The position numbers and the translations under genes are program-made. 64,000 bases of DNA from Saccostrea echinata (Eukaryota), in assembly GCF_033153115.1 (NCBI RefSeq), contig NW_026889752.1, positions 13,268,001-13,332,000 of the forward strand, written 5' to 3'. Position 1 is the first letter of the stretch. Each line of letters begins with the position of its first letter. The notes under the pieces were generated by a model. That model was not told the origin of the DNA, did not search any database, and saw nothing but the letters and a program-made list of their open reading frames with translations. Of the stretch, positions 1,363 to 14,425 are shown in pieces.

Positions 1363-1479
1363 TTACGTCATTCCCATCTGTTACTGTCAAAACATTTAAT
1401 GATAGACAATGAAATGGGCGGGTACAATATTCGACACGGACGTCCGAGAAATCATTGGATTGAAATTCTAGTTTGAAAT
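1363..1479 (+). repeat. Left arm of a ~115-bp inverted repeat pair (partner 13240-13354)
   Basis: Hand alignment to the reverse complement of 13240-13354 shows 7 substitutions and one 2-bp indel. Confidence 0.9.
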
Positions 1480-1508: not shown

Positions 1509-1706
1509 ACTGGCCCCAAGACCATAAACTGAGAACAGACTTAAGTCAAAATTTCAAACCAATATAACTTTTGAAATAATTTTGATAATAAAACAAACTT
1601 TTTATCATATATTTGAATTGAAATGTTATATAAAATTGCAATTTTTTTTAAGCAAATACATTACATATATAACTCAAAATATTAAAAATTGAAATTTTGA
1701 CTTAAG
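1509..1706. mobile_element. MITE (TIR ggccYYaagaccataaactgagaacagacttaa), right TIR interrupted at TTAA
   Basis: Same family as the complete copy at 18088-18295. The right TIR stops at gacTTAA and is followed by ggggaagaaggac. A further TIR fragment lies at ~2669-2704. Confidence 0.7.
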
Positions 1707-3002
1707 GGGAAGAAGGACCTTTAGCTGAAAAAATACTTGTCATTCAATTTTTTTTTATATTTTGTATATTTCTTATTAAGTATGTCCCACATATCTTAAA
1801 GCAGTTATATCATTAGGTTTCTTACCTTATTTTAGAGATATTGGTTGACAAATATAATGCCCTACAGTATCTAAGTGGAGTTTTAATTCTCCATGTTTCC
1901 GGGCTCATTACTCTGTCCATAATTGGATTTTTAAAGCATATATAAAAAATATGTAAGTGAACATGTATCTTTTAAAATATTTCAGAGTATGAATTGGGTT
2001 TAAAATTCGAAAAGGCAAGTTTCATCTATCACACAGCATCTGGATAAGGAAAATTACGAACTTTTTAAGACAACTTAAACAACAAAAAACGTAATTTACA
2101 AAAAATCCTATCATTCAATATTTTTAAATTTACGTTGAAATGCAAGTCCTTCAAATTATTGATTAACTGTAAAAATTTCGAATGGTGAAGCTGACTTCAA
2201 TATTGCACAGGACATCGTTAAAGACGACATAAGCAGGACAAAAACTTGTCATGTTTACATTTCTCGAGTACGGGAAAAACCAACTATGACGTCACACGTA
2301 AGCTAAATAAGCGAAATAAGATATACCTACATAAGATTTCCGTCATCAGCCATGCAAAAATAATTTTTGTGTTCCCCGTTTCTCAAAATACTTCATCATA
2401 TACTTATTGTGACCTGTTTTTACATAATAATACCGCCCTTGTATTCACCGAGTATGATCTTGCTGTACTAGCAGATCGTGTATGACGTCACCGACTTGTT
2501 GGACGCACAGTTTAAAGAAACAGAGGAGTGGATCAATCTTTTTTCATAATTTGTTAATGTTTACAAGAATGTTATACTTTTTATTTTTTTAATATAAGAT
2601 GGTAATTAAAGAAAAAAAATTGTCAATTTTTTTTTACAAGAACTGATGCTTTACACGTTTTGGGTCAATCAGGCCCTAAGACCATAAACTGATAATAGAC
2701 TTAAGGGGATGAAGGACACATGGTCACATGACTTTGATAAACTACGTCATATCTTTCAAGATAATATGCACGCATGCACATAACGCTCATGGGGTGGCAA
2801 AATAGAGAGTGGCATAAATTCACGTGTACTTTGACATTAACATGAATAAAAGTTTTGCTACAGATTATTTTAGTAAAATATTACGATAATAAATTCTATA
2901 TTTTTTCATGAGACTGTTTTTTTCTCTAATTTCCAATAATATGACTGTGCATACGTAACTAATTTCCGGCAAAGCCTTGGTTACGGCAATGTTTACATAG
3001 AG

Positions 3003-3011
3003 TAAGATGGC
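3003..3011 (+). promoter_or_regulatory. YY1-like motif AAGATGGCG overlapping the ORF2 start codon
   Basis: Sequence gtAAGATGGCGacc. This motif is common at animal transcription/translation starts; function here is untested. Confidence 0.4.
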
Positions 3012-5963
3012 GACCCGGGAAAGTTTAAACAAACTTAAAAAAAATTCCTTACAGCGGTTAGCAGAGGAGTTGGGAGTGGTTTTTGAAAAAAAGACAAAAG
3101 AGGAAATAATCAACTCCATCTTAAACCTTAATGTCCCTATCCATTTCGAGGGTAGTCCTTTAGATACGCCCCATTTTACCGAGGTACAGTATGTATCGTT
3201 AGATGCGGAGGCGATACCTGATCTACCATTCTCGGCGATTGTCCGCTTTATGGTCGATCGCCAGGTACAAGGCCGTGCAGTCCAAAATTTTCGTGGTCTA
3301 GATCGTGCTGCAAAACATTTTGAGGCAGGAGATGTGAAGGAAATCCTCATGGCCAAGGTAATCTTTATTTTGTGACGGTAGCAAAACTATTTTTAAAAAA
3401 AATAATAATAATAAGGTTGGCAAAATTAAAATAAGAAATTACCAAGCAGTACAATAATCAGGGGAAACATAATTGTATTTTAAATTTCAATTTTTAAAAA
3501 AAAAAAAAAAGTGAAACTACTTTCGTCCATATTATGATATCTCTTTTACATGTTTGTAATATACTTTTTTTCAGGTGAATGACTCAACCATATACTTCAA
3601 GGCATTCTGCCTTGCATCTATGAAGAAAATTAAATATCAGATTTTCATATCTGCTAGATGTCTGGAGGGGGAAATGACAATTAACCATGCTTACTGTCAG
3701 TGTCCTATAGGGTAGGAATTACATTTAATATACATGTATCAGATATCGTAATGTTCAAGCCCTGTGTATATATACTCAGTGTATGTATAAGTCATACAAG
3801 TATAAACACCTTATATATAATGGTACTTAACTATCAAAACTACAAGTTCCACAACTTAATAATCAGAGCGATTAATTGCTTCCTGCTTGAGGAATATGAA
3901 CCATTGTCCCTTCACATTCTGATTTTATATTGCATATGAATGATGTATAAAAAAAATCATTACTCAGTATTTTATTTATAGCACAAAAAATAGAAATAGA
4001 CATTAACTTGTTACATAAATTTGAAAAAAAAGTACTACAATTGTCACATTACTTTTAGGTTGGCTCAGTCATGCAGTCACATTGGGAGCCTTCTTTTTGC
4101 CCTTAATTCTATCAAGAAAGAAGCAGAAAATTCCTGTACATCAAAACTCTGTAAATGGAATGTGCCCAGACAACTGAATCTTCCTGCAGCACCCTTATCC
4201 GAGATGAATTTAAGAAAAGCAGGTTCAATAGGTAAAGTAACTATGGTAACTATGGTAATTGCAGCCATGAATGACAGCAGCTGCAGAAATTTAAATCAGG
4301 ATTAAGATATAAATGTTTCTGACAAATTTCAGCAAGCGGTGGAGATCAACCAATTAAAAAAACTATACAGTTTGATCCAAGACACCCAGATCACAGGGAC
4401 ACAGATTTAAGTGCTCTCCAAGCATTGAGGGATGTTTTTCCCAACACAGGTAATTACTACTGCACATTTAGATTAGGGGATATTGGAGACAATAATTCAA
4501 AGTAAAAGGTTAACTCATATTCTTTTTTCTTGTATTCAGGAATGGCATGTATATGGGATATTCCGGAAAGAACACCAACCCCAGTGAGTGAAGTAACAGT
4601 GACTTCTTACGTGAATCCTCTAGAGACTGATTTGCAAAAGTTGGTGGATTTGTCTGAATCTCTGCATGGTATACTCAATTTCTTCTGATCACTAAAATTT
4701 TATTGCCAATTTCTTCAATCAAAATTTTGATAAAACAATGCATGTACTTCAAAATGATTTTCAGTATTCTAAAACCTTTCAGCTAACATTCTGCAACCAA
4801 TCAGTGAGGAGTTATCGTCCTTTGTGGAGATGAGAACCAGATCACAGCGCAATAGTCCAGAATGGATATCACTCCATAAGGGTCGCTTAACTTCCTCAAT
4901 CTTTGGAGACATTATCAGGGCAGGAGAACATCCTAGGAGCCTCATCTCTGGAATTCTCCATGGTTCCAGTCTTCAACGGTATGATTCATTTTCTGCAGAA
5001 AAATTAAAATTAAACTTTAGAGCATTCTTACTTAATTTTACATTCTAAATATACAGACAAATCCTGTTGCCTATCAGGTAAACCAAAGAACAGAAAATTA
5101 GAATTTTGAATAATAATTTGACTAACCTCTTTAGAAAACATTTTTTACATACAATTTTTCTTACCCTCCTTTTCCTTGCAAAATATGTTAGAGTTCAGCT
5201 GGACCTGTTAGTAATTTCAATATTATACTGCATATATATGACATTTAAAAATAAGAGGCCCAGGGGCCACATCGCTCACCTGAGCACTCTGGCTAGGAAA
5301 AAGCAGAAATCAGTTCAGTCTTGAAAAGTTTTGATATAAAAGTGGTTCAGAGGGGGGGGGGGGGTGTTAATTTGAACTTGAATCTATACTTCAAAGGGAT
5401 GCTTTTGAATTAATATGACAAATAATGGCTATGCTGTTCTTAGAAAGACAATTTTTATTGATATATCATATGTATTCCTTTGTATAACAATTTGAATCTA
5501 CATTACCTGAGGATGCTTGCATTTATATATGACTAATTATTGCTTTGCAGAAGAAGATTTTAAAAGGCTTGCTTTTTCTTATGTATTCCTATGTAAAACT
5601 TTAATCACCCATAGTGGTCCCACCCTACCCCTGGGGGGTCATGATTTAAACAAATTTGAATCTACACTACCTGAGGATGCACCCATAAAAAAAACCAATC
5701 ATGGCTTTGCTGTTCTTGAGAGAAAGGTTTTTACAAATTTTTCCTATGCATTTTATGTAAAACTTTGATCGCCCATTGTGGCCCCATCCTACCCCCGGGT
5801 GTCATGATTTGAACAAACTTGAATCTACACTACCTGAGGATGCTTCCATATAAGTTTCATATTTTCAAGCACAGTGGTTCTTGCAAAGAAGATTTTTAAA
5901 TGATGCCATTAATTTTTCATGAATTCATGATTATCTCCCCTTGGAAGAAGGCGTGGCCCTTTG

Positions 5964-6026
<63 letters not shown>

Positions 6027-6099
6027 CTAGTAGTTCTGGAGAAGAAGAAGAAATTGTGAAAAGTTTACAACGACAACAACAACAACGCCGCCGCCGACA

Positions 6100-6158
<59 letters not shown>

Positions 6159-6710
6159 TAACAACCTAATAACAGGTACCCGTCAATGCCACCTGCAGTC
6201 CAGTGGGGAATTGACCATGAGGAGATGGCCAGGCAGGATTACTTAGAACTTGTGAGGAGAGTTGCAGATGTTTCTGTCCAACCACTTGGTTTGACTTTAC
6301 TAGCATTATGTCCATTTATTGGAGCATCTGGGGATGGCAAAATCCTGGACAAGAGTATGCCAGAGGGCTCTCAGGAAGGTGTCCTGGAGATCAAGTGTCC
6401 ATATTCACTTAATGGCAAAGTCATTGTCAGTAAGGAAGTGCACGAGCTATACGATCATCTGGATTTCATGGAAGTGAAAAATGGGAAAGCAAAATTAAGC
6501 TGTAAACATAAGTATTATGCTCAGGTGCAAGGGGAGATGGCTGTTTTAGGCTTACCATGGTCTGACTTCGTTATTTGGACTGCCGCTACTAAAAGCAATG
6601 TTTACATTGAAAGGATTCATTTTGACTCCACTTACGTTTCCAGTATGATTTCAAAACTTCACGAATTCTATGGGAAACATATAATACCCCATCTTAAAGA
6701 TGTTGAATAA
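3007..6710 (+). CDS. Transposon ORF2: N-terminal SAP/HeH-like helix, SWIM zinc finger and YqaJ/lambda-exonuclease-family nuclease (~545 aa, 7 exons)
   Basis: Exons 3007-3357, 3575-3711, 4059-4231, 4333-4449, 4540-4668, 4783-4978, 6176-6710. All introns are GT-AG, phases are compatible, total 1638 nt with no internal stop. SWIM CQCPIGLAQSCSH is split across exons 2/3. YqaJ motifs: TRSQRNSPEW..RLTSS, WGIDHEEMA, GASGDG, LEIKCP, YYAQVQGEM. Confidence 0.88.
5251..6158 (-). mobile_element. Non-autonomous Helentron-type element (HINE-like) with internal ~165-bp tandem repeats, in ORF2 intron 6
   Basis: Terminal blocks aagaggcccaggggccacatcgctcacctgag and agaaaagctcacttgagccttcggctcaggtgagctaa (hairpin), a short acaac/gcc microsatellite, and repeated units ttgaatctacactacctgaggatgc. 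Confidence 0.75.
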
Positions 6711-6789
6711 GTGGCCCATGGGCCTGAACATAATTGATCCACATACATGTATAATTTAATGCTGGATATAATGCGGAAATTGATTGGAT

Positions 6790-7655
6790 AAACAAGATGT
6801 GTTTGTGAAACACTGATGCCCCTGTACGGCAGCTTATGGCGAAGGTTAAAGTTTCTCAAATGCAAGTCAAAATCCAGGCCAAAAGATAAAAAATGTTGGT
6901 ACCTAAAGAAAGGTCTTGTCTCGAGGAACATACTTGTGAAATTTGAAAGCCCTAGCTGCAACTGTTCAAAAGTTATAGCGAAGGTTAAAGTTTTTTAAAA
7001 GTAAGTAAAACGTCAAAATCAAGGTCAAAGTTGTTGGTATCAAAGGAAGGTCTTGTCACAAGAATTACATAAGTATGTGAAGTATGAAAACCCTAGCAAC
7101 AACCATTAAAAAGTTATGACCAAGGTTAAAGTTTTTCGAAAGTAGGTCAAACTCCTAGGTCAAGGTCAAAGGGTCAAAGAGATTGATATCCAGAGGAAGG
7201 TCTTGTCACAAGGAATATACATGTGAAGTTTGAAACCCCAAGCACCAACTGTTCAAAAGTTATGGCCAAGGTTAAAGTTTTTCAAAAGTAGGTCAAATTC
7301 CAAGGTCAAAGTTGTTGGTATCCATAGGAAGGCCTTGTCTCAAGGAATACACATGTGAAGTCTAAAACCCCAAGCACCAACTGTTCAGAAATTATGGCCA
7401 AGGTTAAAGTCTCATAAAATTTTGCAAAAGTGGGTCAAACTCCAAGGTCAAGGTCAAAAGGTCAAATATGATGGTACATAAAGAAAGGTCTTGTCACAAG
7501 GAATACACATGCGAAATATGAAAGTCATAGCTCCAACCAATCAAAAGTTATGGGCAAGGTTAAAGTTGACAACAGACAGACAGACAAACAAACAAACAGA
7601 CAGACATGACAAAAACAATATACCCCCGGGATCTTTCGATCCCGGGGCATAAAAA
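6790..7655 (-). mobile_element. Second HINE-like family element with ~120-bp aaggtcaa-rich tandem repeats
   Basis: Repeated units aaaagttatggccaaggttaaagt..aggtcttgtcacaaggaata, an ACAG microsatellite at ~7572-7605, and a terminal hairpin cccgggatc-tttc-gatcccggg followed by an A-run. Confidence 0.7.
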
Positions 7656-7816
7656 ATTTACTTTATATTGTATAAAATGGGTTGCCTATATCACAATGAC
7701 TTGTGTCAAAAACATATCATTCCACCTGACGTTACATTTAAATTTTGTACAATTTGAAGTAATTTTTTAAGGGCAATCATCTTTTTTCTTACACTAAATG
7801 AAAGAAAATTAAAATA

Positions 7817-7956
7817 TAAGGAATGAAATTCATAGCTACCCAATTTATACGGTTACCGTATAAAGTGGGTAGGAACAGTTTATGCTGTTTTATAAATCGC
7901 TTCGCGGTTTATAAAGCTTAAACTGCCCCAACCCACCTTATTAAATTCATTCCTAA
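7817..7956. mobile_element. Short foldback/MITE-like element
   Basis: Termini taaggaatgaa / ttcattcctaa. Internal hairpins tttatacggt-taccgtataaa and gtgggt..ttataaatcgc-ttc-gcggtttataa..acccac. Confidence 0.55.
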
Positions 7957-8460
7957 ATAATTAATTTTTTTCATGTTAACTGCAAACATTTGTACTGAAA
8001 CTATCTGATTTATTTAAGACCAGAAAATATAAGCGAAACAGTTTATTTTAATCCCAGAATCTTGTATTCTTTGATTTTAATGCATTTTCTGTAACATATA
8101 TGAAGTTTAAATTCTATTTTGAAAAGAAACAGAAACATTTAAAAATATATAAACTCTTTCTACAGATATTCTTTTCTTTTCATAGATTTCAGAATAGTAG
8201 ACATTATATACAAAAGCTTTACTTAAAACTAATAACTGTTGACAATATATTTCATGTGACCTAATGTACATGAACATGTGCATTTTACAACCATTATTTG
8301 TCCAAAAACAGGGCTTGCAAATTGCATCTACATGATAAAAAAAAAAAAGAGAAAAAAAATTGATTCATTCTTCAATTCTCTATTTACATGTATAGGTAAA
8401 GTGGTTATTAAAGGTGGTTTGGAGTTTACAAAGGTAAAATTCTATGACTTTCAATAAAAA

Positions 8461-8526
8461 GCCAGACATAAAACATGTAAACAGCTTATGCCTGCCAGAC
8501 ATAAAACATGTAAACAGCTTATGCCT
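8461..8526. repeat. Perfect 33-bp tandem duplication
   Basis: gccagacataaaacatgtaaacagcttatgcct x2. Confidence 0.9.
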
Positions 8527-8673
8527 CCCAAATACATTTTTTCAAGGACCCAATATACCTCCAAACTTACCTTCCAAGCATCTACCTAACTAATAGATAC
8601 TCTCATCTCTATTTCATCAGGGTGAGCTACAAAACTGGCATTTTATAGAGTGACTAGAAATCTCTTTGTACAT

Positions 8674-11600
8674 TTAATTTTCAATAAGTGGAACATCAAG
8701 ATTTGTCAAGAAACTGGCAACTTGAAACATTTGATTTAACAGAGGTGCAAGTGAAAGTGGCATCACACCATCAAAAATATGAAAACATTTAATCCTACCT
8801 ATACTTCTCTCAACATGAATGCGAACTTTTGCAATTTCTTGTGTGTACAGGATTTCATCAACTGAAAATTGTCCTTTGGTGTTAAATGGTGGAATATTTA
8901 AAGTACAACCTCTTTCTTGCAGTAAATCTCTAATTGTAAAACCTTTATCGGCCATTACATTGTCTCCTGGTTCTAATAAATCCAAAAACCCACTATCAAT
9001 AACCATCTGTCTGTCTGAAGTTTTCCCACCCCATGCATTTGACACAAAAGAAATTACTCCAGCAGGTGAAATTCCTATCAAAAACTTCATTGTTGTATGA
9101 TGTTTATAATTTGAAAAAGTTAAATTCTGGTTAACTAAACTTGATGATTTCTGAATATATATTTCAGTACAGTCAAGAATTACTCTTAAATTTGGAAACT
9201 TTTTCATGCATTCAGGCAAACAAGATGCAATTTTTTCTCTTGAGGGAAACTTATTCAGAGCACAGAGCTCAGCATGAAGAAGACAAATCCATGTCGTGAA
9301 AAAAGAAGAAAATCTTGATGTTGAGATTCCGAACCGTTCAGCAATATCAGTTACTAAAAGCCCAACCTTCAGACGCATAAGAACGGCCAGCAACTGATCA
9401 ATGAGAGGGAGAGTACTTTTGTTTGGCCTCTGCCTTCCTGTCTCTGACGTACCTTCACCAATCCAATAGGTCATAGATCTTGCCTTAGGAAGTAGGAAAC
9501 TGCAAAAGAGAATTGAATGTCCATTCATTATGGAATATACTGTAGAAGCACAAATTTTCATGGGGATAAAATTTTGTTGATTTGCCATCTAAAAGGGTTT
9601 CGTGTGCATTAAAATTTGTTGTTACGAATGTACTCCTACTCATCATATAGTCATATAAAATTTCTTGTGGGATTTAATTTCGTTGATTATTGTTAACAAA
9701 GAAATAAATGAAATTAAATCCCCAACAAATATTTCTGATTCTACAGTACTCAGGAATTAGCTCCCTTGTGCACATGCATTTTTCTGTTCTAATCTTAAGA
9801 TGATACATGTACCTTCAACCTTGCACAAAAGTTTTTTTTTATTCTTTTTCTATTTTATTTGATATTACATGTCTTTGTATGAAATGTAGGATGCTCATTT
9901 AATACATATAAAAACAAGAGGCCCATGGGCCACAACACTCACCTGATTAACTTTGGCCTTGATCTTCTTCACCAGATTTCCACCCTTGTAATACCTATTG
10001 TTGCCCCACCTTACCCCCGGGGTCATGATTTGAACAATTTAGAATCTACACTACCCCAGGATGCTTCCATATAAGTTTCAGCTTTTCTGGCCCAGCTGTT
10101 CTTGAGAAGATTTTTTAATGACCCCACCCTATTTTTGTCTTTTCTTGATTATCTTCCTTGTAAGGGGGCTTGGCCCTTCATTTTAACAATTTACACTCCC
10201 CTTTACCCAAGGATGCTTTGTACCAACTTTGCTTAAAATTGACCCAGCGGTTCTTGAGAAGTTGGAAATATGAAAAGTTTACAGACGGACGGACGACGGA
10301 CAATGGGTGATCATGGGTGATCAGAAAAGCTCACATGAGCTTTCAACTCAGGTGACCTAAAAATACTGTACTTGTACAGCCAGAGGAAAACAGGGAAGCT
10401 GGGCAACCCAGTGTAGAATCTTGTTGCAACATCATCATCTTTAATTTTGTTTACACCCCATTGTAGTTTATGCAGCTTTTCCTTCAGAAGCATGTTTTCC
10501 TCCTTCAACAAGGCATTCTCTTGGAGAAGAGGATCAGTGTCACACTGTGAACCTATTAATGACTATACATTGCAATTGGTCTCCATCACATTAAAACATA
10601 AGTATCTTTTGTGTGTGTGAGGAGGAGCATGTTGATTTTATTAACTGCAGCTACCTGCCATTAAAGCATCATAATAAAAAGTCAACATCAATTTTGGTAT
10701 TCAAAATGTAATACAGTCAACCCTTGTTATATCAAACTCAATGGGACCGAGGAAAAACTTTGAGATATCCGAGGATTCAAGATTTCCAGGGTAAAATACT
10801 TAAACAATAAGGGGTTGGGACTTCCAAATCACTTCGACATATCCATGGTATTCGAGATATCAGTGTTCGAGATACCAAAGTTCATCTGTATTTACATTCC
10901 ACATGCTGTTTGCTTATAAAGTGTGTGCAAAGCTGTGACATTCAAAATACCATAACCAGGACACGGGGTCAAAAGATTAAAGTATGCATTTTATTTTAAC
11001 GTTAAAAATGTTGAAGGCCATGCAAGTGCAATATCATTTAAGCAAAAATTAAAAATCACACTCAGATTGAAAAGATTGCAATTGCTCTAAGTCTTCCATT
11101 AATTGTAACTTAGCGAAAGGATAATACAGGAGTTTTGAAGTGAAAATCATGTTTGCACACAAGACAAGGAGTTACAAATGTAAATATAAACATTGAATCA
11201 TTTTCTTTTTAAAGACATTGTCTCATAACAGCAACGCGGTGTGAGCAAACAAATTTTCATAACACACTAATGCATGTTGCTCAACTTGTTGCAGTTATGG
11301 GACTATATCTTTCAAAAAATAATTCAATACTTAGAAATAAGTTAACTTCAAAGCAAATACTTTTGGGAAAATAAACAGTCCAAACCTTCATCAGCTGTAA
11401 GGACTACACCTATGTCAATGTCATCATCTTCATGAAATACATTTACATTGTACAATTTCCCTGGAGATGCCTGCTGCTCTTCAGGGACACTGTAGCTATG
11501 CATTCTTATGGATGCCTCTAGTCTGGTTCTCTCTAAATGTTCTTGTTTTGCAGCTGCTTCCTCAAAAGTCTAGGGGAAAAAATCAATTACATCTAACAAT

Positions 11601-12657
11601 AATATTACAAATAAAATTAACTCTAAGCTTCGAAAACAAAAGATAAACCTCATGTTAATTGTTTATGCTTTATTCCTTAAATTTAAATATTTTTTCATTA
11701 AACACAGATATACAAAGTAAATGCACATTTTGACAAACAAAATATGTACTACACTAAATGTATAATACGGCTGTGCAGTTATATAAATATGATAAGTGCT
11801 TCTTTCCATCAAATTTAACCAGCAAATTTAACGTATATGGATAGATCTTACTTTATGGCACTAGTAGAATCCAGGTTCCCCATATAAATGACCAGCATAC
11901 TTTGACCAGCAAAGATGGGGTAGCTTGTGAAACTTTTCAAAACAAATAGCAACTGCACACTGAATATTTCAATTATTTAACAGTTTGACAGTTGCACTAT
12001 TGTTAAGAGGACAGTTTCAATTAATCAAATCACTAATCTAAAACAAATAAGTAACTGTGCCATATTTACACCAGGAAAATCTAAATAACCAGAAAAATTA
12101 GCACATTAATGAATATTAAATGACTTGCAGTGACTTGTACATATTTGAAATGGGATGAAATATTTAATCTTAATAGACTTTAATAAATAAATTTGGTACA
12201 ATAAGACGTATTTAGCCTGGAATTGCGACCAGCTCAAATCAGGCTAAATGTCACGTCAAATTAATGGGTATAAGGTAGACAACAGAGGAATCTCGGGTTG
12301 ACATGTTTGTAATGCATGTTGAAATAAGATATTCGTATTATATAATACAAATTATCATACCTTTGTCAGATTTCTCCTGAATGCTCTTGTAAATCTTTCA
12401 CTGTTTTGTTCCTTTGTACACTTATAAGAAAATAATGTCGGCCTGTAATTACGGTCTTCACGGTCATCCGAGTGCCAACCCGTCTCGAAATGTTCACTGC
12501 ATATCCTGCTGCTGCTGTTAGGCAACCAGCCTTTCCTGTTAACAGCATTAACCCATGCTCGCCTTTTCGTTTTATTTGCAGGAAACTTAAAAAACGACAC
12601 CTTACAGTCCTTTGTGGCTCGGTTAGTACACCCAACAACACAACAACTTTTCACCAT
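8674..12657 (-). CDS. THAP-domain DDE transposase (THAP, coiled coil, HTH_Tnp_4, DDE_Tnp_4), ~495 aa, 4 exons
   Basis: Exons 12657-12361, 11569-11386, 10552-10372, 9499-8674; GT-AG, in frame, 1488 nt. THAP C2CH: MVKSCCVVGC..FFKFP..W..ICSEHF..PTLF. HTH: LIDQLLAVLMRLKVGLLVTDIAERFGIS. Catalytic triad in ILDCTE / MADKGF / IHVERSIG. Confidence 0.9.
9540..9746. mobile_element. TA-flanked MITE (Tc1/mariner-type) in transposase intron 3
   Basis: TA|CTGTAGAA...TTCTACAG|TA with imperfect longer TIRs. Confidence 0.7.
9914..10362 (-). mobile_element. HINE-like element (same family as 5251-6158) in transposase intron 3
   Basis: acaagaggcccatgggccac..ctcacctga start, gacg microsatellite, agaaaagctcacatgagctttcaactcaggtgacctaa end. 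Confidence 0.75.
10714..10888. mobile_element. TA-flanked CAGT.. MITE in transposase intron 2
   Basis: TA|CAGTCAACCC..ttcgagataccaaagttcatCTG|TA. A second copy of the family lies at ~63667-63835. Confidence 0.7.
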
Positions 12658-12689
12658 GATTCTTTTTGCCACCCCATGGTACTTCAGCG

Positions 12690-12699
12690 CATGCGCGAT
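12690..12699. promoter_or_regulatory. NRF1-like palindrome GCGCATGCGC upstream of the transposase ATG, just outside the TIR
   Basis: cagcgcatgcgcga at ~12686-12699; a degenerate counterpart gcacgcatgcac lies at 2768-2779, outside the left TIR. Confidence 0.4.
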
Positions 12700-13239
12700 A
12701 TTTAATCCCGCAGTTAAGCAAAAAGGGCTTATTTCGGAATAGTTTGAAGTTTGAAATTTATATAAATGAGAATTTTTTGTCCAGTGTTACGTTTTTAAAG
12801 AAATATAATGGGACAAATATTTGATTTCTGTTTAATATGTGTGCTGGGGGGGGGGGGATCTTGGAAATGAATAAGAAAGTTTTCTTTTAGTTTGGACAAC
12901 CCTTCCATATGTTTTTGTTGTCAAACATTTTTCAGTGAAGACAAAACTAAAAAAAAAAAACTCTTGTCATCCTAGAAATAAACATATTCTGTCACGTGAA
13001 GGCATGATCTCACTTTACAGTTTTTGACAGCCCCTCCCCCCTTCTAGAATCAAATGGCTGTCCCCTGAAAAAATAATCTCTTCTATTACTTTTACATGTA
13101 CTTTAAAATTATAGGCTAAAAACTCTGACATGTAAATATGAATTTCACACAACATGTATTTGAGAATTGAAATTATTTGTCTTCTGGATCATACATTCAC
13201 ACAGTAGGTTTGAAAACAGCTCAGGTGGATTGAAAATAA

Positions 13240-13354
13240 ATTTCATACTAGAATTTCAATCCAATGTTTTCTCGGACGTCCGTGTCGAATTGTACCCGCC
13301 CATTTCATTGTCTATCATTAAACATTTTGACTGTAACAGATTGAAATGACGTAA
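13240..13354 (-). repeat. Right arm of a ~115-bp inverted repeat pair (partner 1363-1479)
   Basis: Reverse complement matches 1363-1479 (core aatgaaatgggcgggtacaa..ttcgacacggacgtccgagaa..cattggattgaaattctag). Confidence 0.9.
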
Positions 13355-13884: not shown

Positions 13885-14425
13885 TGACAAAACCTATTCA
13901 TTCTAAGTTAAAGAAGTATATTACTATAGAATAAGGCTTTCTTCCCATAGCTTAAGTATAGAAACAGGAAGATATCAGAAAATAGAAAGAAGCAATAGAA
14001 TATGTCAATTTTGTAATGATCACCGTATCGAAGATGAATATCATTTTTTGCTTGAATGTCCTGTTTATGATTCTTTAAGAAGAAAATATATCAAACCATA
14101 TTATTTCAGATCTCCAAATATGTACAAGCTTACTCAGTTACTCAGCTCTCATGATGTTGGTGTTTTAGTTGGATTAGGGAAATTTATTTTTTATGCAATG
14201 ATATTAAGAAATGATGAATAATTTAATTTATATGCATATTGTGTATAGATATTTTTCATGTAAAATGGAGAGTTTAATGCTTACTGTAATTGTTGGTGTT
14301 GAGGAGTCGGACAGATGGACACTAGGGGTTCCACCCCCGTAGACTCTCGCTATGCGTACATAATTATGTTAATTTTGTGTATACTGATGGGCCGTATGGC
14401 TTAAAGTTGTTTAATAAAGAATTAA
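13885..14425 (+). mobile_element. 5'-truncated CR1/L2-clade non-LTR retrotransposon 3' end
   Basis: Translates as RLSSHSLSIETGRY..RICQFCN..IEDEYHFLLECPVY..LRRKYI (C-terminal zf-RVT-like region), followed by a 3' UTR with a small hairpin and AATAAA. Confidence 0.75.

What the first reader, a model, noticed from the sequence alone, without database searches (positions are those of the whole stretch)
3007..6710. SAP-like/SWIM/YqaJ accessory nuclease with a non-canonical GASGDG motif
Seen: an N-terminal short helical module (LNKLKKNSLQRLAEELGV..KTKEEII), SWIM CxC..CxH, a conserved SCTSKLCKWNVP segment, and a YqaJ core in which the usual GASPDG reads GASGDG. Inference: a DNA-tethered 5'-3' exonuclease could resect donor or target ends, or drive homology-based gap repair that restores the excised copy. 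That would be a phage-recombinase-like function inside an animal transposon.
Basis: partly seen in the sequence, partly recalled or inferred. Interest (0 to 1): 0.7.

Follow-up and report, generated by a model that had tools for sequence, protein, structure and literature searches.

The report
Oyster ISL2EU transposon's docked nuclease
This is the intact second gene of an already described two-gene jumping element (ISL2EU) in an oyster; its odd-looking motif is an ordinary variant, and the nuclease it encodes is predicted to dock on the element's cut-and-paste enzyme and likely trims the DNA ends that enzyme makes.

Summary
The motifs are real. They form a 7-exon, 545-aa ORF facing an intact 487-aa THAP-HTH-DDE transposase in a 10-kb element with three 99.9%-identical copies: the published ISL2EU layout (AT target duplication). 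GASGDG is neither private nor inactivating. The proline is replaced in 85 of 227 homologues and in all 44 members of this clade (mostly by Ser; Gly recurs), while Asp, Glu and Lys stay in 227, 226 and 226. ORF2 is under purifying selection (dN/dS about 0.27), and introns 1-5 are spliced in contigs from two studies. More telling than P>G: the residue matching lambda Arg28 (5'-phosphate and processivity) is His in 27 of 29 close relatives. A sister family's ORF2 is predicted to bind its transposase (0.78 against control 0.00), and six database proteins fuse the two. A transposase-docked, short-range nuclease therefore fits better than a lambda-Red-like recombinase. Function is untested. This scan has already reported ISL2EU, and the predicted binding, on other DNA.

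The parts
2752..12730 (.). ISL2EU-type DNA transposon (about 10 kb including three nested repeats); this copy lacks the first 4 nt of the left end
   Evidence: 99.9% identity over 9,981 nt to two other places in G000 with unrelated flanks; ends compared
12731..12732 (+). AT target-site duplication at the right end
   Evidence: AT on both sides in 6 of 8 copies of two families; 2-nt duplication supported by paralogous empty sites
2771..2802 (+). subterminal inverted repeat, left arm (partner 12664-12695)
   Evidence: I11, 78% complementary
12664..12695 (-). subterminal inverted repeat, right arm, just upstream of the transposase start
3007..3357 (+). ORF2 exon 1: helix-extension-helix module (aa 1-45; Rho-N/SAP/LEM-like) and start of the SWIM-associated domain
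   Evidence: spliced join
3575..3711 (+). ORF2 exon 2: beta-sheet and first two SWIM cysteines (C158, C160)
4059..4231 (+). ORF2 exon 3: C168/H170 of SWIM and SCTSKLCKWNVP
4333..4449 (+). ORF2 exon 4: FDPRH segment, most of the predicted transposase-docking region (aa 231-266, window 4362-4559)
   Evidence: predicted on a sister family and mapped by alignment
4540..4668 (+). ORF2 exon 5: end of the predicted docking region and linker
4783..4978 (+). ORF2 exon 6: nuclease N-terminal helices; W330, H334 (lambda Arg28 position), T339, S341
   Evidence: Viral_alk_exo E 0.022, below cut-off
6176..6710 (+). ORF2 exon 7: YqaJ core; E383, S419-G420-D421, E439, K441, Y482, Q484
   Evidence: Pfam YqaJ E 1.3e-11
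6321..6338 (+). GASGDG motif (G420 at the usual proline position)
8674..12657 (-). Transposase gene, 4 exons (12657-12361, 11569-11410, 10552-10372, 9499-8674), 487 aa, THAP-coiled coil-HTH-DDE with D322, D397, E443
   Evidence: Pfam THAP, HTH_Tnp_4, DDE_Tnp_4; model without internal stop; splicing predicted, not shown
5251..6161 (.). nested high-copy repeat in ORF2 intron 6 (approximate ends)
   Evidence: window self-matches, very high depth, shared by all three copies

Best explanation
The ORF is the intact nuclease gene of an ISL2EU DNA transposon; its protein is predicted to dock on the element's own DDE transposase and likely trims, over a short distance, the 5' strands of DNA ends that the transposase creates. 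Shown: gene structure, catalytic residues, pairing with the transposase, AT duplications, recent copying, purifying selection, splicing of introns 1-5. Predicted: lambda-exonuclease fold, helix-extension-helix and SWIM modules, and binding through the aa 231-266 segment. Inferred: 5'-to-3' polarity (from the family), low processivity (His at the Arg28 position), and that the substrate is the pair of host ends left at the donor site, where short resection would favour homology-directed repair from the sister chromatid and so restore the excised copy. G420 is a neutral variant of a non-catalytic position.
For: Layout matches ISL2EU as described. D/E/K present in 227/226/226 of 227 homologues, with the proline replaced in 85. 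dN/dS 0.26 (window v C22b, 252 codons, Fisher p 1.5e-13) and 0.27 (C29 v C6, 449 codons, p 4.4e-4). A convergent DDE gene lies next to the nuclease in 14 of 17 G000 regions examined, not all independent. Fold of homologue P0032: LHK-Exo Z 18.9 (rmsd 2.4, 179 aligned), lambda Exo Z 18.7 (rmsd 2.8, 198 aligned). Complex of sister-family P0111 and P0031: score 0.78, best of 3 controls 0.00; the mark was reached by 51 of 78 solved complexes and 2 of 108 mismatched pairs (eukaryotes: 39 of 65 and 2 of 126); runs agree in at least 67% of contacts; partner pLDDT at least 71. No solved homologue of the DDE part was found by sequence, only THAP domains. Six of the best 120 listed long DDE proteins carry a C-terminal YqaJ domain in one chain. 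His at the Arg28 position in 27 of 29 close relatives against Arg in 153 of 183 outside the clade; Arg28/Arg12 governs 5'-phosphate recognition and processivity (PMC3239189, PMC11611040).
Against: No activity or transposition data. The complex was predicted for a sister family (45% and 58% identical to the window's proteins), and ORF2 interface residues are no better conserved than the rest (38% v 45%). A conserved Arg three residues downstream (R337; 180 of 227) might replace Arg28. Spy and Harbinger relatives move without a nuclease. Splicing of intron 6, needed for the catalytic exon, was not shown: one run joins 4992 to 6180 out of frame and two runs carry foreign sequence after exon 6. 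The window copy has a damaged left end. Transposase dN/dS against the degraded C22b copy was 0.70. The fusion proteins' DNA could not be fetched.
Confidence: 0.45

Rival explanations
1. ORF2 is a TnsA-like subunit of a two-protein transposase: docked on the DDE enzyme, it cuts or clips the non-transferred strand at the element's ends so that the element is released.
For: Predicted contacts put nuclease helices (P0031 356-372) and the transposase catalytic helix region (P0111 447-464, with E464) in the interface lists. Natural fusions. Loss of the processivity arginine. TnsA is named as a PD-(D/E)XK enzyme of transposon excision in PMC3424549; its second-strand role is recalled knowledge.
Against: The fold is of the exonuclease subfamily. 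Related Spy and Harbinger transposases excise without such a partner.
Confidence: 0.2
2. ORF2 is needed as a binding partner or scaffold, like the Myb-like protein of Harbinger (end binding, nuclear import), with the nuclease activity secondary.
For: Harbinger's second protein binds the transposase and the ends (PMC9179366 passages). ORF2 has two likely DNA-binding modules and a predicted docking segment.
Against: Catalytic D, E and K are nearly invariant in 227 homologues. Fusion proteins keep the nuclease and lack the SWIM motif. The transposase has its own THAP and HTH domains.
Confidence: 0.15
3. ORF2 is a lambda-Red-like processive ring exonuclease that drives single-strand annealing or long resection.
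For: Best structural matches are LHK-Exo and lambda Exo. S341, S419 and Q484 of the phosphate pocket are kept.
Against: The Arg28 position is His. The element has two genes and no annealase domain was seen. The best viral matches are baculoviral alkaline exonucleases.
Confidence: 0.1
4. The nuclease acts on host nucleic acids (RNA or chromatin) to blunt silencing, as herpesviral alkaline nucleases degrade host mRNA.
For: Structural similarity to SOX and BGLF5 (E 7e-6 to 4e-5; Z 15.5); these enzymes have RNase activity (PMC3424549).
Against: Predicted docking on the transposase and fusions to it point to action at the transposition site.
Confidence: 0.07
5. P>G is a private, inactivating mutation and ORF2 is decaying.
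For: Only 11 of 227 homologues have Gly here.
Against: Gly is in all three genomic copies and needs 5 changes on the tree; the whole 44-row clade lacks Pro; the frame is intact; dN/dS is 0.26-0.27; the proline is known to be replaceable.
Confidence: 0.03

Closest known systems
ISL2EU group of the PHIS superfamily (Han et al. 2014 PMC4122938; Han et al. 2015 PMC4482050; four Crassostrea gigas families in its Table S2, e.g. Repbase ISL2EU-10_CGi and ISL2EU-15_CGi)
   Same: Two ORFs: THAP-HTH-DDE transposase and a YqaJ protein of about 500-550 aa; AT target duplication with A|AT|T preference; animal host.
   Different: Ends are AG...TT and imperfect, not the usual GG; about 10 kb against an average of about 4.8 kb, partly from nested repeats; proline-less, His-pocket nuclease clade. 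No sequence comparison with the Repbase entries was possible.
Lambda exonuclease / LHK-Exo (YqaJ, PF09588) of phage two-component recombinases
   Same: Fold (Z about 19) and catalytic residues E383, D421, E439, K441, Y482, Q484; phosphate-pocket serines.
   Different: His at the Arg28/Arg12 position; N-terminal helix-extension-helix, SWIM and predicted docking segments; no annealase partner seen; ring formation untested.
Viral alkaline nucleases (PF01771; baculovirus Alk-Exo, EBV BGLF5, KSHV SOX)
   Same: Extended N-terminal helices of the nuclease; best BFVD matches are baculoviral (E 1.6e-12).
   Different: Transposon-borne, intron-containing, with a SWIM module; low identity (14-20%).
KolobokE (PMC9587614)
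   Same: [quoted passage not shown]
   Different: Kolobok transposase and TTAA duplication; nuclease lies downstream of the transposase domain. Here the transposase is DDE_Tnp_4 and the nuclease is a separate convergent gene.
PIF/Harbinger two-protein system
   Same: Related DDE_Tnp_4 transposase with a second element-encoded protein that binds it.
   Different: Second protein is Myb/SANT, not a nuclease; 3-nt TWA duplication.

Membership tests
ISL2EU | Transposase with THAP, HTH and DDE domains | tested here: met
   THAP E 1.1e-15, HTH_Tnp_4 3.3e-11, DDE_Tnp_4 4.1e-44; 487 aa, D322/D397/E443
ISL2EU | Second ORF with a YqaJ exonuclease domain | tested here: met
   YqaJ E 1.3e-11; 545 aa
ISL2EU | AT target-site duplication (A|AT|T preference) | tested here: met
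   AT on both sides in both sister copies and 4 of 5 copies of a second family; paralogous empty sites at C54 and C6 fit a 2-nt duplication; the window copy has AT on the right and a rearranged left end
ISL2EU | Terminal inverted repeats (6-259 bp) | tested here: inconclusive
   Only a short imperfect terminal match (about 6 of 9 nt) plus a 32-nt subterminal inverted repeat at 78%
ISL2EU | Typical, not defining (the paper says 'usually'): ends begin with GG | tested here: not met
   Ends read AG...TT in both families examined
ISL2EU | DDE domain falls in the ISL2EU clade of a PHIS tree with reference sequences | not tested
Lambda-exonuclease (YqaJ) family | Catalytic E, D, E-x-K and Y-x-Q residues | tested here: met
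   E383, D421, E439, K441, Y482, Q484
Lambda-exonuclease (YqaJ) family | Lambda-exonuclease fold | tested here: met
   Model of homologue P0032 (mean pLDDT 86.8): Foldseek E 9.6e-10 to LHK-Exo; Z 18.9, rmsd 2.4, 179 aligned
Lambda Red-type two-component recombinase | Arg28-type 5'-phosphate and processivity residue | tested here: not met
   His334 by alignment to LHK-Exo Arg12; compensation by R337 not excluded
Lambda Red-type two-component recombinase | Ring-shaped homotrimer | not tested
Lambda Red-type two-component recombinase | Partner single-strand annealing protein | tested here: inconclusive
   None among Pfam hits of 11 element pieces or in the fold search; absence from lists does not exclude one
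Lambda-exonuclease (YqaJ) family | 5'-to-3' exonuclease activity | not testable with these tools
   Needs an assay
SWIM zinc finger | C-x-C-x(n)-C-x-H motif in a SWIM-type fold | tested here: met
   C158, C160, C168, H170; conserved in 164/166/182/182 of 227 rows, most of the rest gaps; model region 88-205 matches ZSWIM8 113-213, Z 9.4, rmsd 2.6, 98 aligned; no Pfam SWIM hit on the split exons
SAP domain | SAP-specific helix-extension-helix as opposed to Rho-N or LEM | tested here: inconclusive
   Rho-N Z 6.6, FAN1 Z 5.3, emerin LEM Z 4.9, Hcc-1 SAP Z 4.8 on a low-confidence model; Pfam Rho_N in 4 homologues, one above cut-off

The most novel reading that the evidence does not exclude
ISL2EU is an animal two-subunit transposase: a phage-type exonuclease, retuned by loss of its processivity arginine, docks on the DDE enzyme through a dedicated segment (or is fused to it in another lineage) and processes the break so that the element is cut out and then copied back, giving a cut-and-paste transposon its own built-in repair-steering nuclease.
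Probability: 0.3. Interest if true: 0.65.

Novelty: new member of a known kind. Interest (0 to 1): 0.33.

Why it matters
What remains open is the job of the ISL2EU second gene, which PMC4482050 (2015) calls unknown; my searches listed no paper that tests it. This locus supplies intact, recently copied genes and three concrete handles: a predicted docking segment, a His at the processivity position, and natural transposase-nuclease fusions. If the nuclease steers repair at the donor site or completes excision, it would be a distinct way for an animal cut-and-paste transposon to raise its copy number.

Tried and rejected
P>G as private or inactivating: rejected. A TA duplication with other ends: rejected by the C54 empty site, which is 2 nt too short for it. 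Using the window's own left flank as an empty site: failed, because 14 paralogues of the flank continue into a different repeat and none joins the right flank. First exon 6 acceptor was off by one and gave stops; corrected. IQ-TREE did not finish; FastTree was used, so supports are SH-like only. dN/dS between distant families is saturated (pS 0.69-0.83) and is not quoted as a value. Single-sequence fold of exon 1 was poor (mean pLDDT 49); only aa 1-45 were used. No run was on record as RNA; spliced joins, not depth, are the evidence. Transposase splicing was not visible (repeats crowded the tables). DNA of the fusion proteins was not found. No annealase, and no SAP or SWIM Pfam hit, appeared in the lists; this is not evidence of absence. 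The lambda Exo-DNA structure paper (PMC3141983) is not held. No earlier scan note lies near this place or matches the fusion words. Homotrimer formation was not modelled.
Full report
Observation. The span 3007-6710 holds a seven-exon gene on the + strand (3007-3357, 3575-3711, 4059-4231, 4333-4449, 4540-4668, 4783-4978, 6176-6710), all introns GT-AG, giving 545 aa without an internal stop. Exon 7 matches Pfam YqaJ above the curated cut-off (E 1.3e-11) and exon 6 weakly matches Viral_alk_exo. Contigs of four public runs (three samples, two studies; RNA status is the tool's guess) join introns 1-5 at these sites: intron 1 in 3 of 4 runs, introns 2-5 in 4 of 4. All four carry C at 3240, the letter of the two sister copies and not of the window, so this shows transcription of the family, not of this copy. 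Intron 6 was not seen spliced: one run joins 4992 to 6180 without GT-AG ends (a net shift of 10 nt, out of frame by my reading) and two runs show foreign sequence after 4978.

Context. On the - strand, facing it tail to tail, lies a four-exon gene for a 487-aa THAP-HTH-DDE transposase with D322, D397 and E443 and no internal stop. The stretch 2752-12732 is 99.9% identical to two other places in G000 with unrelated flanks; a DNA search with the left end found these three places only. Both ORFs are open in all three copies; of four coding differences in ORF2, three are silent and one is P161S in the C22 copy. Nested repeats are shared by all three, so they arrived before the last round of copying. 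The two sister copies read AT|AGAC...CTT|AT. A second family (five copies examined) has the same end type, with AT on both sides in 4 of 5. A tandem paralogue of the C54 flank without the element shows one AT, which fits a 2-nt duplication; a repeat paralogue of the C6 flank agrees in length. The window copy lacks the first four bases of the left end and abuts an unrelated repeat, so it is probably less mobile than its sisters (inference). In 17 G000 regions with a match to exon 7 that I examined (of 152 matches), a convergent DDE gene lay beside it in 14 (one only a fragment), a divergent one in 1, and none was seen in 2 within the stretch fetched; several of these are copies of one family. 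The closest named relatives are from oysters, scallops and mussels, and oyster-labelled proteins match G000 loci at 99-100% over whole exons, hence 'oyster'.

The GASGDG motif. I aligned 254 proteins (hits, six fusions and the window's) to a family profile; 227 cover motifs II and III. The position before the catalytic Asp is P in 142 and something else in 85 (S 35, V 13, G 11, L 8, C 5, others 13), while D, E and K are present in 227, 226 and 226, and the motif I Glu in 222 of 223 filled rows. The set is biased towards this clade, and only the best 150 of 20,682 representative hits were seen. On a FastTree tree of 201 rows (26 dropped for under 75% coverage; trait column removed), the window's protein sits in a 44-row group with no proline (support 83) and an inner 29-row group (support 99) with S 21, G 6, C 2; proline versus other needs 11 changes and glycine 5. 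[quoted passage not shown] So P>G is neither private nor family-wide, and there is no reason to think it inactivating.

A more informative change. A column scan for positions that mark this clade gave five, among them the residue four after the conserved Trp: His in 30 of 44 clade rows and 27 of 29 inner rows, Arg in 153 of 183 rows outside. In the profile alignment to LHK-Exo this column pairs with Arg12. PMC3239189 (passages) reports that Arg12 and lambda Arg28 bind the 5'-phosphate, that mutating Arg28 lowers rate and processivity, and that Arg12Ala is 7-fold slower and blind to 5'-phosphorylation; PMC11611040 (passages) describes the Arg28 ratchet. The other pocket residues are kept (S341, S419, Q484). 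I infer a slower, less processive enzyme; R337, conserved in 180 of 227 rows, could compensate.

Selection. Nei-Gojobori counts on in-frame aligned codons give ORF2 dN/dS of 0.26 for the window against the degraded C22b relative (252 codons, p 1.5e-13) and 0.27 for C29 against C6 (449 codons, p 4.4e-4); the transposase gives 0.19 for C29 against C6 but 0.70 against C22b, where frameshifts disturb the alignment. Comparisons between distant families are saturated. ORF2 is therefore maintained, which refutes the 'dN/dS near 1' condition.

Structure. A model of full-length homologue P0032 (132-sequence alignment; mean pLDDT 86.8, pTM 0.58) has three parts. The C-terminal domain matches LHK-Exo (Z 18.9, rmsd 2.4, 179 aligned), lambda Exo (18.7, 2.8, 198) and EBV BGLF5 (15.5, 4.4, 234); residues 88-205 match ZSWIM8 113-213 (9.4, 2.6, 98); residues 2-46 match the Rho N-terminal domain (6.0) and FAN1 (5.4). 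The best viral matches are baculoviral alkaline exonucleases. The window's own first 45 residues give Rho-N, FAN1, LEM and SAP matches at Z 4.8-6.6 on a weak model: helix-extension-helix, not specifically SAP. This module was found in 27 of 254 sequences at E below 1e-12, those of the bivalve-rich group.

Link to the transposase. The window's spliced proteins could not be submitted, so I modelled the cognate pair of the second family (P0111 150-506 with P0031 62-580; pairing checked). Score 0.78, best of 3 controls 0.00; the mark was reached by 51 of 78 solved complexes and 2 of 108 mismatched pairs (eukaryotes 39 of 65 and 2 of 126); the runs agree in at least 67% of contacts and the partner's pLDDT is at least 71. 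This supports binding and does not show it. A profile of the transposases found only THAP domains in the PDB, so a pass from memory is less likely. The most confident contacts lie in P0031 267-301, which maps to window aa 231-266 (4362-4559); nuclease residues 356-372 and transposase residues 447-464, including the catalytic Glu, are also in the interface lists. Against: ORF2 interface residues are 38% identical to the window's, against 45% overall. Separately, 6 of the best 120 listed long DDE proteins (358 hits) carry DDE_Tnp_4 followed by YqaJ in one chain, 51-86% identical to each other, one group in the nuclease tree (support 99), without the SWIM motif; three clusters have several full-length members. 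Their DNA was not retrieved, so these fusions rest on database gene calls.

Mechanism. Most likely the nuclease rides on the transposase and trims 5' strands a short way at ends the transposase makes. The transposase should cover the element's own ends, so the exposed ends are the host flanks at the donor site; short resection there would favour homology-directed repair and restore the copy (inference, 0.45 for the whole chain). Rivals: TnsA-like second-strand processing (0.2), scaffold role as in Harbinger (0.15), free lambda-Red-like ring (0.1), anti-host nuclease (0.07), dead enzyme (0.03).

Comparison with what is known. PMC4482050 (passages and Table S2 rows 255-272 of supplement 1) defines ISL2EU by AT duplications, a DDE-HTH-THAP transposase and a YqaJ ORF, lists four oyster families, and says the function of the second ORF is unknown. 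PMC4122938, PMC9179366 and PMC9587614 (passages) agree, the last describing KolobokE with a similar nuclease. PMC5718144, PMC12730594, PMC11678175 and PMC5888420 (passages) added background only. Searches listed no paper on the SWIM or helix-extension-helix modules of ISL2EU ORF2, on its binding to the transposase, or on fusions; Repbase Reports and most subscription journals are not covered.

Verdict. A real, intact, recently copied ISL2EU element; the flagged motif is ordinary; the unanswered question of ORF2 function gains testable handles. New member of a known kind, interest 0.33.

Noticed in passing
proteins P0168, P0171, P0173, P0179, P0181, P0182: Single-chain coiled coil-HTH-DDE_Tnp_4-YqaJ fusions without the SWIM motif, from several assemblies; a possible fused lineage of PHIS transposons.
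   Followed up: partly
window 1702-2751: A roughly 1-kb high-copy repeat with TTAA-GGGG ends; its terminal 60 nt lie inverted relative to the body and abut the transposon's truncated left end, suggesting a local rearrangement.
   Followed up: partly
window 1363-1479 and 13240-13354: A 117-nt inverted repeat at 92% identity encloses the whole element; probably the ends of another, older DNA transposon.
   Followed up: no
window 2771-2802 and 12664-12695; also the C58 family: A subterminal inverted repeat lies upstream of both start codons; in the C58 family it is 48 nt at 98% identity. It could be a shared promoter element or transposase-binding site.
   Followed up: no
window 4978 (exon 6 donor): Contigs of two runs continue from exon 6 into foreign sequence, and one run joins 4992 to 6180; chimeric transcripts or deleted copies may exist.
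   Followed up: no
window 5251-6161, 6790-7631, 9907-10331 (approximate): Three high-copy non-coding repeats nested in introns and between the genes, carried along in all three copies.
   Followed up: partly
L085 (G000:C9:26386001-26396000): A sibling element with transposase exons 93-95% identical in protein, cut off within the DDE exon, with no ORF2 in the stretch fetched.
   Followed up: partly
window 6534-6536 (E488): QVQGE in all 44 clade members against QVQGQ in 89% of others; a second clade-marking change near the active site.
   Followed up: no
window 13907-14221: A 104-aa open frame that resembles the C-terminal zinc-finger end of a LINE reverse transcriptase (label recalled, not tested).
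   Followed up: no
L083 (G000:C25:16918501-16928500): A YqaJ gene with canonical SPDG in divergent, not convergent, orientation to a DDE gene.
   Followed up: no
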